From: Chrysomallon squamiferum | Taxonomy: Eukaryota > Animalia > Mollusca | DNA: 64,000 nucleotides | Direction: 5' to 3' | Assembly (NCBI GenBank): GCA_012295275.1 | Contig: CM022670.1 | Location: 930,001 to 994,000 of the forward strand | Shown: piece after piece, positions 2,355 through 9,209 of the stretch | How positions within the stretch are numbered: the first letter of the stretch is position 1 | How the letters are laid out: every line of letters begins with the position of its first letter | Notes under the pieces: generated by a model | Told to the model about the DNA's origin: nothing | The model's input: the letters and a program-made list of their open reading frames with translations, nothing else | Databases searched by the model: none | Made by a program: the position numbers and the translations under genes

Positions 2355-5300
2355 TTAACCTCTGGTTAACTGGAAGGGAAAATCAAATCCTCTAGTACGA
2401 TAAAAGATTTGCTCGTAGCACGTGCAGTCTTGTGGAAGATACAGGTAACGGAAATTAAGACCTTGCGTCCAGAATCCCACGTCTGTGTAACACCACGCCC
2501 AGAACCACACCTTCGTCCACTCGGTAGGCCAACATATTGTATTACCACAGGCGCAGGGCATTCCACATTTGCTGTTGCTATAAAATAATAGTAATAATAA
2601 TAACAATAACAGCAGCAGCAACAACAACAACAACAGTAAGAACAACAGCAACAACGGCAACAACAACAACAATAACAATAATAATAACAACAGTATCAGC
2701 ATGCACACTGTCAAGCAAACAAATAATAATAATTAGAATCTGTTTCTTCACAGTTTATGATTTATGGTTTTGATGATCGTAGACAAGATGTCTGATGTCA
2801 GTTATGGAGTAATTAATTATGCTACGTTTGCAGTGGTGTTGGCGGGCGGCGGATAGAGGTGGGATAAGTTAAGACGAAGTATTTTTTGGATGATAAACAG
2901 GGATGCCGATTTATATGTGGGCTTTATGAAGAAATTTGACAGTAGTAGTAAAAACAGTTGTAGTAATTACAAATACAATGAAGCAATAAAAATAATAAAA
3001 TACTACATAATAATAAATATAGTTTTAATTTAAATAATAATAATAATAATAATAATAATAATAATAATAATAAATAAATAAATAAATAAATAAATAAATA
3101 AATAAATTATTATAATTCTATTTCACAAATAGCTACATAAATAAATTATTAAAAAAAAAAAAAAAATAAAATAAATAAATAAAAAAGTTCACCTACCTGC
3201 ATCTAGCGGACCCTGACTTGTTGCCAGTAAGGAAAAATAACAAAACACAGGCCTCCATAGAACGTGTCCACGTAACCCGCATTGGGTTTGCAGGGTTCAC
3301 AGTTTCTCACCCAGTTGTACAACCACCATGTTGAATAAAAAGGTGGACGAAAAGGCGGTTGTTCTGTTGTACTTTCGTTACAGATTTTGTCTTTAAACTG
3401 AAATACGCCTTCTCCGATCTTTTCTAGCAAAGCCTTTTCTGCTTTGCGTTGTACTTCAGAGTACGAATCGTCTGTAATAATAATAATAATAATAATAATA
3501 ATAATAATAATATGCAATGAAATATTTTTCAATGAGTTTATAATTCTGCCTTTGGATAATTTTGTCGTCACTGTTGATAAATGGTTTGAAATAAACATAT
3601 TAGTTATTTTTGTCGTCATTATTATTATCTCATCAGCATTATAATTATTAATAATTATTATTATTATTATCATCATCATCATCATCACTATCATTATTAT
3701 AATAATTATTATATAATAAGTAGTAAAAATAGTAGTAGCATCGATATTAGACGTCATTATCATCATCATCATCATCATCATCATCATAATTATAATCATC
3801 ATCAGTATTAATACTAGTGGTTGTAGTAGTAGCAGCAGTAGTAGTAGTAGTAATATTCTTTTCATCTTCAAATTTCACTCTTTCGTCATAGAATGTGACG
3901 TCTAGTTTAACTTTCACATCCGGGTTATCACGACTCGGTTTACACGACTGTCCAGAAACTGTGGTTACGATCAGACACGTCAAGATAAGAAGTTTCTGAA
4001 ATTAAACATACACACGTACATACATACATGCACATAGTATAGACATACATACACATAGGTACACATACGTATACACTCACACACACACATATATACACAC
4101 ATAGACTTGGGTACCGGATCTACAGCGATCTGCAGAAAGACCAGATTCAGGCTTCACAACATAATAAAATCTCAGTCTACGTTCAGTAGCGAACAAACAA
4201 AAAGTGAATATCAAATCTGAACTAACCTAGACTGCGATTCCAAAAATGTTGTGTGTTTGATGACATGCAATTTGTGTATAACACAGTACGTCGGCCAAAC
4301 ACAAAATATGTTACGAGTTAGAACTGCTTGTCACAAATACAATATTAGGCATGAGGTTGGCATTCGAGTCGCCAAACATTTTAACCTACCTAGTCATATA
4401 TTGAAGGATCATTTTGAAATAATCCCAATAGAGCAAACGCCCATTCTCGGTTCCAAAAACTGAAACTCACCTCTTTAGACTTGAACGAGAAGCGATTTGA
4501 ATTTGCACGTTACAAATCCAAGAGCAATTGGGAAACAATGTTGAATCGGGAAAATGTAAAGAAAATGTAAAAAATGTAAAGAAATTGTAAAAAAATACTT
4601 TTCAGATAATTTCAATCGCAGCAACGTTGACGTTGGTAAAATTATCATAGGAGCAGACTGCTATGAAAAATCCACTAACAGCAAGTGACGTCACAGCTTA
4701 AACCCAGGTCTAAAATACATTTTAGTCTGTACGAGATTTTCTGAATAATATGTCTGTGTAAAGTTTTGATTCCAAAGTATTTACGACTTAATTCAATAAA
4801 AGGTACGGAAATGCTTTAAAATGTTTTCAAAGGATACGTAATGTTTTACGAATTTTTGGTATGGGTTATTTTTTTTTTTTTTTTTTTAAATGTTACTTTT
4901 TTACAGGCATTAAGAAACTACATCCTTCAAATACAGTTCAAAATAGTTTTAAATACATTTTTGAATATTTTTCTTTCTATAAGTGTATTTGTATTAAATG
5001 TTACAATAGTTTATAGATTTTTTTTCATAAAGGATACTTTCTAAATTGTTTACATACATACATAGATACATATATAGATACAAACAAACAATCAAATAAA
5101 TAATACTATTTAGTAAAGGATATTTCCAAAGATCTAATGAAAATGATACGTTGCAGGATAAATCTTTAGTGGATCTCTCTCTCTCTCTCTCTCTCTCTCT
5201 CTCTCTCTCTCTCTCTCTCTCTCTCTCTCTCTCTCTCTCTCTCTCTCTCTCTCTCTTCTACAAGACAAGTAAACTAATTTTAGATTTAACAGTTTACTGG

Positions 5301-5404
5301 AATCCTAAATAAAGAAATCAAACAAAATATTCTGAAAACCGAAATGATTAAACTGCGAAAAAAATGACTAAATAAACAAACAAACAAACACGAGTACTTA
5401 CCAT
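2355..5404 (-). CDS. Secreted Cys/Trp-rich cystine-knot (Spaetzle/neurotrophin-like) protein, paralog A; contains a +1 frameshift (assembly error or pseudogene allele)
   Basis: Hand-spliced exons: 5404-5402 (ATG|gtaagt); 3995-3815 (signal peptide KLLILTCLIVTTVSG; donor at 3814 uncertain); 3471-3197 (..ICNE..NCEPCKPNAGYVDTFYGGLCFVIFPYWQQVRV-ARC); 2577-2355 (SNSKCGMPCACGNTICWPTEWTKVWFWAWC..YLYLPQDCTCYEQIF..). One extra base near 3206-3213 creates TAG (3205-3203) just before the conserved AGATGCAG|gtagg. AATAAA overlaps the stop. Clearly homologous to the gene at 7582-9209. Confidence 0.8.
4107..4550 (+). mobile_element. Penelope-like retroelement fragment (GIY-YIG endonuclease), decayed, antisense in intron 1 of gene A
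   Basis: Translation ..LDCDSKNVVCLMTCNLCITQYVGQTQNMLRVRTACHKYNIRHEVGIRVAKHFNLPSH..RLEREAI*ICTL matches the PLE GIY-YIG pattern (C-x-S-x-NVVY..C-x2-C..YVGET..R..H..VA-x-HFN..RE..WI..L). Contains stops and a frameshift. Confidence 0.85.
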
Positions 5405-7581: not shown

Positions 7582-9209
7582 ATGGTAAGTGTATTTATCA
7601 CAATAATTTACTTCATTTTTATTTAAATATTTTTAATATACATTTGAAGTTTGAAATGATATTGAAACTCTATTCGTAAGTAATAATTTAGAAAAAAATT
7701 GGAATTATACGAATATGTCAGAGAAAATAGGAGGACAGAAATGAAAATGAGAATTGGCAGATAAGAGATTCCATTGTGAACACGAAGTGAACAGAACAGT
7801 GTAAGGCAGGGATGCAGCATCATTCGTTCTTTTTAACTGGTTTTTTTTTTTTTTTTTTTTAAATATTTGTTTTTCTTCGCTTTCAGAAACTTTTGTTAAT
7901 TTTGTGTTTGGTGAAAGCTGCGCTTTCGAACCAATGTCCCGCAGCCATGAGCAACCGTAAAGTGAAGTTTGGCAGTGACATGACATTTCTTACCGGCCGT
8001 GTTGTGTCTGCCAAAAGGTAAAATTGACTAATAATAATAATAATAATAATAACAACAACAACAACAACAACAACAACAACAACAACAACAACAACAACAA
8101 CAATATAAAAATAACACCAGGATAAATATAAAATATATTGTAATAGTAGTAAGAAGAAGAACAATAATAAGAACAACACTTCATTCTACAACAACAATGA
8201 TGATGATGCTTGTAACTAATAATTAATAATAACGATAACAAAAACAAAAACAAAAGAATTAGTAGTAGTAGTTCTAGTAGTACTGGGTTTTGTACGTAAT
8301 TAAATGAAACAGTAATTTATTGATTTCGGACAGTGCTGTAGAAGTCAAGGCGGTGGCAGCTTTTGCACAGAAAGTGGGGCACGAAATAATGCCATCGAGA
8401 CACTGCGTTCCAGACAGAAATTGGCCTATCGTGAAGTGTGAACCGTGCCGGCCGAATGCGAGATACTTGAAGACTTTCTTTCATTCCACCTGTTTTGTCA
8501 TCCGTGCACACGTGCAGAAAGTGAGGACGACGAGATGCACGTAAGTAAACAAATTCATTTAACTAGTAAAAGAACACAAGTGATTTAAATTAGTGAAACT
8601 GTTTTTAAGAGAGATAAATGAAATTACAGTGGTCTGGTACGTACAAATAGAAATTCTGAATTAATCTGATATACTTTCAAATATTGTTTTATTTATACAA
8701 CTTAATCTTTACCGATAATAAAGCAGGATAAAAGTCATCGAAGCTGCCGTTTTCATTCTTTCTTTATTTAACAGAGACGTCAGTGTAAAATACATTTTTA
8801 GACCTGCATAGCAACGATATCATAAACAACCTTGCCAATATTCCACGTAAACAAACAAAAGTAAATGTAAAGTTTTGTCGTACTGTGAGAATTTTCTGTT
8901 CTGAACATGATATTACAGTTTAGAAGAAATAAAGGAATATCGCAGAGTAAGTTCAACATGCACGCTATTCTGTTATCTTTTTTTAAAATTATTTCTATTG
9001 CTATTAAAATTTCCCTTTTTGTCACTTACAGCTATTCTCGGTGTAACCATCCGTGTCAAACCGCAAATACCCAGTGCTTACCCACAGAATGGCATCCGGT
9101 TTGGTTCTGGGGATGGTGCCATAGAAGCACTGGGGGGTGGCGTGCTGGGCTCAGCTACCACTACCTATACCTCCCCCAAGATTGTACCTGTTACAAGAAC
9201 CTGTTTTGA
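7582..9209 (+). CDS. Secreted Cys/Trp-rich cystine-knot (Spaetzle/neurotrophin-like) protein, paralog B, 172 aa, intact
   Basis: Exons with GT-AG and consistent phases: 7582-7584 (ATG|gtaagt); 7887-8017 (signal peptide KLLLILCLVKAALS then NQCPAAM..); 8334-8540 (..RHCVPDRNWPIVKCEPCRPNARYLKTFFHSTCFVIRAHVQKVRTTRC); 9032-9209 (TYSRCNHPCQTANTQCLPTEWHPVWFWGWC..YLYLPQDCTCYKNLF*). AATAAA at 9224. The Q-x-V-x3-C..C..C..LP-x2-C-x-C spacing resembles the Spaetzle C106 domain; family assignment is inference. Confidence 0.9.

What the first reader, a model, noticed from the sequence alone, without database searches (positions are those of the whole stretch)
2355..9209. Head-to-head pair of uncharacterised secreted cystine-knot (Spaetzle-like) genes: candidate co-regulated, possibly heterodimeric ligand system
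Seen: two divergently transcribed paralogs with ATGs only ~2.2 kb apart, neither visible as a whole ORF. Both have an ATG-only first coding exon, a KLL.. signal-peptide exon, 12 aligned cysteines and an unusual Trp-rich strand (PTEW-x2-VWFW-x-WC..YLYLPQDCTCY). Protein A has a 13th Cys (PCACG) that could form an interchain disulfide. Known: cystine-knot ligands (Spaetzle/Toll, neurotrophins, bursicon alpha/beta, GPA2/GPB5) act as dimers, some encoded by linked paralog pairs. Inference: a lophotrochozoan secreted cystine-knot family used in immunity/neural signalling or as a mucus/shell/adhesive component, with a shared bidirectional control region.
Basis: partly seen in the sequence, partly recalled or inferred. 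Interest (0 to 1): 0.8.

Follow-up and report, generated by a model that had tools for sequence, protein, structure and literature searches.

The report
Undescribed snail cystine-knot secretion family
Two back-to-back snail genes, both spliced in RNA, encode secreted proteins predicted to carry a growth-factor-type knot fold; they belong to an unnamed family multiplied in snails, and their likely high output and excess of amino-acid changes suggest a bulk defence or gel-forming secretion rather than a two-part hormone.

Summary
Both genes are real. Gene B (+, 7582-9209) is intact, 172 aa, with all three joints and a poly(A) tail seen in RNA-like contigs. Named relatives are all 'uncharacterized': Gigantopelta 4, two abalones 6 each, four scallops 1 each. 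None of 12 hits a knot family in Pfam. Cysteine pattern, predicted models and language-model neighbours point to a growth-factor cystine knot (Spaetzle/NGF/coagulogen side), each weakly (Z up to 4.3). The '13th Cys' is the family norm (10 of 11 gastropod rows) and B lost it, so it cannot link A to B by simple counting. Variants are mostly amino-acid changing (27 of 29 codons in A). Best reading: an abundant, fast-varying secreted effector working like coagulogen or mussel foot proteins; tissue and partner unknown. A dedicated A:B hormone pair is poorly supported, and conservation of the head-to-head layout could not be tested.

The parts
5402..5404 (-). Gene A exon 1 coding part (ATG only); 5' UTR lies upstream
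   Evidence: GT donor follows; X8 contig loose end at 3996 reads into this exon (table 7)
3854..3995 (-). Gene A exon 2: signal peptide and start of pro-region; 3' end inferred, no GT at 3853 in the window
   Evidence: X8 record 24 has 22 letters between 3871 and 3466, i.e. 17 + 5 if colinear, phase 1; donor list
3197..3471 (-). Gene A exon 3: pro-region helix, linker, first half of the knot domain
   Evidence: tblastn to P0001 E 2e-14; X7 record 17 joins it to exon 4
3210..3211 (.). One base more in the window than in other runs; shifts the frame of gene A to a stop
   Evidence: X1 19.7 of 19.7 depth and X6 102.5 of 102.5 lack it (table 4); translation
2355..2577 (-). Gene A exon 4: second half of the knot, extra cysteine (PCxC), Trp-rich strand, terminal CxC, stop
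   Evidence: covered by X7/X8 spliced contigs
5469..5628 (-). Promoter-like elements of gene A: TATA (5474), CCAAT boxes (5484, 5538, 5624), GC box (5587)
   Evidence: motif scan only; function not shown
5405..7581 (.). Region between the two start codons (2.2 kb, holds both 5' UTRs and a 120-bp AG repeat)
   Evidence: no shared A/B motif beyond AT-rich matches
7582..7584 (+). Gene B exon 1 coding part (ATG only); 5' UTR contig from 7448
   Evidence: GT..AG joint 7583-7886 in X8
7887..8017 (+). Gene B exon 2: signal peptide and start of pro-region
   Evidence: X11 record 3 joins it to exon 3; loose ends in X7, X8, X10
8334..8540 (+). Gene B exon 3: short pro-region and first half of the knot
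   Evidence: hhalign to family profile, prob 96.5; joint 8540-9032
9032..9209 (+). Gene B exon 4 coding part: second half of the knot, stop
9210..9331 (+). Gene B 3' UTR, AATAAA at 9311, poly(A) tail at 9331
   Evidence: (table 7)
3363..3389 (-). Cluster of amino-acid-changing variants in the pro-region linker of A
2465..2476 (-). Cluster of amino-acid-changing variants in a predicted hairpin tip of A

Best explanation
Genes A and B are transcribed, spliced paralogs of a multi-copy snail family whose products are predicted to be secreted pro-proteins with a growth-factor-type cystine knot, and they likely work as a bulk-secreted effector (mucus, haemolymph or gland product) that would bind foreign surfaces or set into a gel, in the manner of horseshoe-crab coagulogen, rather than as a trace hormone. 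Shown: gene structure, splicing, family range, cysteine pattern, excess of amino-acid-changing variants. Predicted: signal peptide, a helical pro-region with two cysteines, then two long beta-hairpins tied by six invariant cysteines with a seventh/eighth pair at the hairpin tips. Inferred: very high output of B; members with an odd cysteine count (A type) form disulfide-linked dimers or oligomers among themselves while B type associates without such a link; variable loops face the target; the head-to-head layout is a relic of local inverted duplication that may share enhancers.
For: Splicing and poly(A). Fold: 8 cysteines invariant in 15 of 15 rows with constant spacing; models with long hairpins, pLDDT about 80 in the knot half of P0002; 26 of 31 rows at Z>=2 are growth-factor-type knots, two of them named from recall; Atlas 0.91 to Spaetzle/NGF/IL17 clusters and TM 0.64 to a Spaetzle model. 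Coagulogen is first or tied first in all three VIA runs and aligns over pro-region and knot (Z 4.3, 129 of 175 residues, rmsd 4.5; Z 4.1; Z 3.2). Output (weak hint only): single B exon contigs at depth about 9,600 to 24,200 against 19 to 63 for contigs on introns 2 and 3 in the same runs. Variation: window versus run X1, 27 of 29 changed codons in A change the residue (77.6% expected, P 0.03; 0.14 in the most cautious count); exon 21/431 versus intron 4/245, P 0.034; 6 of 6 listed B codons. B, P0001 and P0002 are cationic, pI 9.4-9.6, and aromatic-rich. Copy expansion in snails. No RxxR or dibasic site just before the knot in A or B, present in 5 of 15 relatives.
Against: Every structural score is low: Foldseek E above 0.05; coagulogen is tied with Noggin and NGF; only 3 of 17 rows were knots. 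Models are of the Gigantopelta relatives (mean pLDDT 61 and 64), not of A or B. Contig depth is a poor measure of expression and the runs were chosen by holding B; one intron-1 contig of B has depth 906 in X7. The variant counts are small, come from a cut table (40 of 151 rows, 40 of 57), may mix alleles with paralogs, and one side of the comparison is a possibly dead copy. Tissue is unknown. No gel, binding or antimicrobial activity is shown for any member. A is near neutral (pI 7.9).
Confidence: 0.4

Rival explanations
1. Spaetzle/neurotrophin-like signalling ligands: processed, dimerising (A:A, B:B or A:B) and binding a Toll-like or tyrosine-kinase receptor.
For: Nearest language-model neighbours of the knot part are Spaetzle/NGF clusters, 0.91. 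Pre-pro architecture; RxxR or dibasic site in the linker of 5 of 15 rows. Scallop relatives have the CCxC end, which I recall as the Spaetzle type. Both genes are found spliced in the same two runs. An unchecked note reports A+B Spaetzle-like pairs in a mussel. A ligand in an arms race could also vary fast.
Against: No Pfam Spaetzle, NGF or IL17 hit in 12 full-length members. A and B lack the linker cleavage motif. B has an even cysteine count. Multi-copy family rather than a fixed pair. Very deep B contigs fit a trace ligand badly (weak).
Confidence: 0.22
2. Structural or adhesive building material of foot, mantle, operculum or egg capsule, cross-linked through cysteines and aromatic or His residues, with no recognition role.
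For: Abundance hint; cationic, Trp/Tyr/His-rich B. Precedent: a Perna viridis gene labelled foot protein 17 is foot-specific at 1,725 TPM (PMC7971044, supplement row), and an unchecked note calls its relatives cystine knots.
Against: No mussel protein came up in four searches, so kinship with mfp-17 is not shown. Excess amino-acid change clustered in loops suggests a changing partner. No repeats or low-complexity tracts in A or B.
Confidence: 0.2
3. Gamete-recognition or egg-coat protein, like the abundant fast-evolving sperm and egg proteins known from abalone (recalled: lysin, sp18, VERL).
For: Abundant, cationic, about 18-22 kDa, duplicated in abalones, with more change in exons than in an intron.
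Against: Known abalone gamete proteins are helical or ZP-domain, not knots (recalled); none of the six abalone or scallop gene ids searched appears in the held papers; tissue of X7 and X8 unknown.
Confidence: 0.12
4. B is the working gene and A in this lineage is decaying; the pair is an incidental duplicate with no joint function.
For: Two lesions in the window copy of A; many differences among runs.
Against: X1 and X6 lack the extra base; X7 and X8 carry spliced in-frame A at contig depth about 2,000; the listed variants remove none of the cysteines and add no stop; an A-like gene exists in Gigantopelta.
Confidence: 0.06

Closest known systems
Horseshoe-crab coagulogen (PDB 1AOC)
   Same: About 175-residue secreted protein with helical N-terminal part and C-terminal knot; best or tied-best structural row, 129 of 175 residues aligned. 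PMC2586362 (passages) places it with Spaetzle and neurotrophins and says it acts without dimerising.
   Different: Z only 3.2-4.3, 12-16% identity, no sequence hit; 12-13 mature cysteines here against 16 (recalled); no clotting shown in snails.
Arthropod Spaetzle (PF16077, PDB 3E07) and neurotrophins (PF00243)
   Same: Signal, pro-region, knot with extra hairpin-tip disulfide; Atlas neighbours 0.89-0.91, TM 0.64; NGF Z 4.0.
   Different: No Pfam hit; Spaetzle chain Z only 2.2-2.3; gastropod members have Asp/Glu where scallops have the extra C-terminal cysteine; no linker cleavage motif in A or B.
Linked heterodimer hormones bursicon alpha/beta and GPA2/GPB5
   Same: Knot fold superfamily; neighbouring paralogs.
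   Different: Those are conserved two-gene systems of the DAN/glycoprotein-hormone type (recalled); GPA2/GPB5 chain Z 2.4; this family is multi-copy, variable and restricted to molluscs in my searches.
Mussel foot protein 17 and related byssal proteins
   Same: Abundant molluscan secreted proteins; reported as cationic Tyr/Trp-rich knots in two-gene clusters by unchecked notes; foot-specific expression of the Perna gene seen in PMC7971044 supplement.
   Different: No sequence link found; the mfp-17 paper was not held, so its cysteine pattern was not compared.
Gigantopelta aegis LOC121375443 and LOC121376510 (uncharacterized)
   Same: 50% and 49% identical to A and B; A shares the PCxC and C-terminal motif with the first, B shares loss of that cysteine with the second; both lie on a contig of the same length.
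   Different: One-to-one orthology weakly supported (B + LOC121376510 at 80/60, A unresolved); adjacency and orientation not seen.

Membership tests
Growth-factor cystine-knot superfamily | Six conserved cysteines ending in CxC, with knot-type spacing | tested here: met
   P0001 positions 101, 131, 140, 147, 183, 185 invariant in 15 of 15 rows, spacing 28-32, 4-11, 6, 35-38, 1; all present in A and B. Assignment to knot positions I-VI is my inference.
Growth-factor cystine-knot superfamily | Two long antiparallel beta-hairpins matching solved knots | tested here: inconclusive
   Strands 142-158 and 168-187 in the P0002 model; top 16 rows are knots, but best Z 4.1-4.3 and Foldseek E > 0.05.
Growth-factor cystine-knot superfamily | Disulfide connectivity I-IV, II-V, III-VI | not testable with these tools
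   Model coordinates are not returned; needs mass spectrometry or a structure.
Spaetzle (PF16077) | Pfam profile match | tested here: not met
   0 of 12 full-length members and 0 of 6 window exons.
Spaetzle (PF16077) | Pro-domain removed at a basic site before the knot | tested here: inconclusive
   RxxR or dibasic motif in 5 of 15 rows; none in that linker in A or B; single-Arg cleavage not excluded.
Spaetzle (PF16077) | Interchain cysteine next to the terminal CxC (recalled) | tested here: not met
   Asp or Glu in 11 of 11 gastropod rows and in A and B; Cys in 4 of 4 scallop rows.
Spaetzle (PF16077) | Binds and activates Toll | not testable with these tools
   Needs a receptor assay.
Neurotrophins (PF00243) / IL-17 (PF06083) | Pfam profile match | tested here: not met
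   0 of 12 full-length members.
Coagulogen | Helical N-terminal part packed on a knot domain | tested here: inconclusive
   Whole-chain alignment, Z 3.2, 4.1, 4.3, tied with Noggin.
Coagulogen | Sequence homology | tested here: not met
   Profile searches of PDB sequences give no knot protein at E <= 10.
Coagulogen | Protease-triggered gel formation | not testable with these tools
   Bench test.
Linked heterodimer hormone pair (bursicon, GPA2/GPB5) | Fixed two-gene family with one-to-one orthologs | tested here: not met
   At least 4 genes in Gigantopelta and 6 in each abalone, 1 found per scallop.
Linked heterodimer hormone pair (bursicon, GPA2/GPB5) | Conserved linkage and orientation | not testable with these tools
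   No animal genomes held; metagenome scan gave only 9-residue chance matches.
Bidirectional promoter (starts within 1 kb; definition recalled) | Transcription starts under 1 kb apart, shared core elements | tested here: inconclusive
   ATGs 2,178 bp apart; contigs reach about 5626 (A, if colinear) and 7448 (B) but cannot show starts; each gene has its own CCAAT box.

The most novel reading that the evidence does not exclude
This family is the gastropod counterpart of coagulogen: a massively produced, polymorphic cystine-knot protein that polymerises after cleavage to seal wounds or trap microbes, with A and B as co-regulated subunits of the gel, arisen from a Spaetzle-like ligand (still single-copy in scallops) and diversified in snails under pressure from microbes or symbionts.
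Probability: 0.13. Interest if true: 0.78.

Novelty: new variant of a known kind. Interest (0 to 1): 0.5.

Why it matters
Growth-factor knots are usually scarce signals; coagulogen is the textbook case of one used in bulk. A snail family with no Pfam model that seems abundant, copied many times and changing fast at the amino-acid level would be a second route from ligand fold to effector or material. It gives concrete candidates for an unknown snail secretion (clot, mucus, egg coat) or, under the rival reading, for the missing ligands of mollusc Toll-like receptors. Abalone members make it testable in a farmed animal.

Tried and rejected
Complex prediction for the knot parts of P0001 and P0002 gave no verdict (score 0.00, alignments not used, partner fold uncertain); it is no evidence either way. 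No RNA holder was on record; X7 and X8 were judged RNA from exon-only depth, spliced joints and poly(A). X10 and X11 (organisms B, C) hold B at depth about 4 and nearly identical, which may be carry-over, so I did not count them as orthologs. Bacterial promoter scan does not apply to an animal. Metagenome scan: 3 loci, all 9-residue chance matches. PDB sequence searches: nothing, or MANF/ARMET at E about 1. P0015 and P0017 are repeat-rich unrelated hits and were dropped; P0003-P0008 are single-exon ORFs with Thr-rich intron read-through and were left out of the full-length counts (P0008 exon part kept in the tree). Paper searches found no description: gene ids (the scallop and four H. rufescens ids plus two Gigantopelta ids), terminal motif, topic searches. 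PMC11871041 (passages and supplements): the supplements held show accession tables and no motif hit, one file is cut and two are unreadable, so they neither place nor exclude the family in shell or scale proteomes. PMC7333891 and PMC11087794 (passages) do not mention the family in what I saw. Pfam did not confirm the transposon-like pieces.
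Full report
1. What is in the sequence. The window is AT-rich animal DNA with introns and simple repeats. Gene B lies on the + strand in four coding exons (7582-7584, 7887-8017, 8334-8540, 9032-9209), all GT-AG, giving 172 residues with 13 cysteines, one in the signal peptide. Gene A lies on the - strand (5404-5402, 3995-about 3854, 3471-3197, 2577-2355). 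The ATGs are 2,178 bp apart. The last exons are 57% identical, the whole proteins 45%, far beyond chance.

2. Gene A is broken in this assembly. Exon 3 reads into a stop just before its donor, and exon 2 has no phase-1 GT donor near its expected end; the next one is at 3814 in a Thr-codon repeat. Laying four public runs showed that DNA runs X1 and X6 lack one base at 3210/3211 at their full depth. Runs X7 and X8 behave as RNA (contigs about 2,000 deep on exons, about 8 on intron 1); X7 joins exon 3 to exon 4 with 16 letters between the aligned pieces, one fewer than the window predicts, and X8 joins exon 2 to exon 3 with 22 letters between, which puts the exon 2 end at 3854 in phase 1 if colinear. 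The extra base sits in a short homopolymer, so an assembly slip is plausible, but two lesions also fit a null allele. I could not tell these apart.

3. Gene B is expressed. All three joints appear in contigs, and a poly(A) tail follows 9331, 20 bases after AATAAA. Single B contigs reach depths of about 9,600 to 24,200, against 19 to 63 for contigs on introns 2 and 3; one intron-1 contig in X7 has 906. The tool warns that contig depth cannot rank genes and that these runs were found through B, so I take this only as a hint of very high output. Both genes are present spliced in X7 and X8; tissue is unknown.

4. Family. Searches found two Gigantopelta aegis proteins, single-exon ORFs on unnamed ENA contigs, two of them on contigs of the same length, then 11 representatives at E <= 0.001 of which two were unrelated repeats. 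Named members: Gigantopelta 4, Haliotis rufescens 6, H. cracherodii 6, and one each in Pecten, Argopecten, Mizuhopecten and Ylistrum. Five of six genes in each abalone share one contig length, so they are likely clustered. All are 'uncharacterized'; none of 12 scanned hits a knot family in Pfam. These counts are minimums; no annelid, mussel or oyster protein came up, which the word-based searches cannot exclude. A shares diagnostic residues with LOC121375443 and B with LOC121376510, but the tree is mostly open (B pair 80/60). The organism is therefore likely a snail; an unchecked note on the same genome says vent snail.

5. Fold. Eight cysteines are invariant in 15 rows. Six have knot-like spacing ending in CxC; the other two would join the hairpin tips (inference). 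AlphaFold models of the two Gigantopelta proteins have mean pLDDT 61 and 64, near 80 in the C-terminal half of P0002, with a pro-region helix and long hairpins. Foldseek lists almost only growth-factor knots but none below E 0.05. The wide structural search on P0002 gave 31 rows, 26 of them knots (two named from recall), led by coagulogen 4.1, Noggin 4.1, NGF 4.0; on P0001 it gave 17 rows with only 3 knots. The second look put coagulogen first at Z 4.3 over 129 of 175 residues, tied with Noggin. The Atlas gave 0.91 to Spaetzle/NGF/IL17 clusters and TM 0.64 to a Spaetzle model. No score is decisive, but they agree; I put the knot at about 0.9 and cannot pick a named family.

6. The 13th cysteine. 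It is present in 10 of 11 gastropod rows; only P0002, like B, lacks it. Twelve of 15 rows have an odd mature count. So an unpaired cysteine is the family norm and B type is the derived case. By counting, A can link to A but B offers no free cysteine; a non-covalent A:B dimer remains possible. Which of three nearby cysteines is the free one is not settled, since P0014 keeps a different two.

7. Variation. Against run X1, 29 codons of A differ and 27 change the residue, where 77.6% of sites are non-synonymous (P 0.03; 0.02 to 0.14 by counting rule). Exons 3 and 4 differ at 21 of 431 bases, intron 3 at 4 of 245 (P 0.034). All 6 listed codon changes in B change the residue. Changes cluster in the pro-region linker and hairpin loops and spare the cysteines. 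Some window letters are shared by other runs, so they are real variants. Caveats: cut tables, small numbers, alleles and paralogs not separable, a possibly dead copy on one side.

8. Shared control. A has its own TATA, CCAAT and GC boxes and B a CCAAT box; the two upstream regions share only AT-rich words. Shared enhancers are possible; a single bidirectional core promoter is not indicated. Conservation of the layout could not be tested.

9. Mechanism. Shown: secreted-type architecture, splicing, expansion, variation. Inferred: a bulk secretion with a changing binding surface, working like coagulogen or like mussel foot proteins (0.40 for effector or gel, 0.20 for plain material), ahead of a Spaetzle-like ligand (0.22) and a gamete protein (0.12). 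PMC2586362 (passages) describes Spaetzle and neurotrophins as cleaved dimers and coagulogen as non-dimeric; PMC11087794 (passages) lists the knot ligand families; PMC7971044 (supplement row) shows a foot-specific gene labelled foot protein 17.

10. Novelty. Ten paper searches found no description; subscription journals, bioRxiv supplements and proteome tables under other gene ids are outside what I saw. Verdict: a real, undescribed mollusc family within a known fold, more interesting as an abundant variable secretion than as a hormone pair. Interest 0.5.

Noticed in passing
window 8-714 and 11477-12185: Direct repeat, 91% identical over 716 bp, flanking the A-B pair; may be an interspersed repeat or the edge of an 11.5-kb duplication unit.
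   Followed up: partly
window 4100-4900 (intron 1 of A), ORF piece 4221-4460 +: High-copy repeat by DNA contig depth; the translation looks to me like a GIY-YIG/Penelope-type fragment (recalled pattern); Pfam gave no hit.
   Followed up: partly
window 10123-10870 +: Broken reading frames that resemble a Mutator-like transposase (my recall); no Pfam hit.
   Followed up: partly
window 12815-15600 +: Arfaptin-family gene, the right-hand neighbour (PF06456, E 7e-23); useful as a synteny marker.
   Followed up: partly
window 46575-48812 +: Single-ORF RING/B-box/NHL gene, brat-like.
   Followed up: partly
window 62047-62280 -: Last exon of a Maf-family gene (PF02545).
   Followed up: partly
window 37820-38457: Tandem repeat with a period near 69 bp; smaller arrays at 13109-13488, 29687-29920, 40761-41599.
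   Followed up: no
window 8332-8540, runs X10 and X11: Runs labelled as other organisms hold gene B nearly letter for letter at depth about 4, X10 in two versions 10% apart; possibly carry-over from a very abundant transcript.
   Followed up: no
P0016, P0032-P0034 (scallops): Scallop relatives are single per species in my hits, far more conserved among themselves, with a CCxC end and a His/Cys tail; they may keep the ancestral ligand role.
   Followed up: partly
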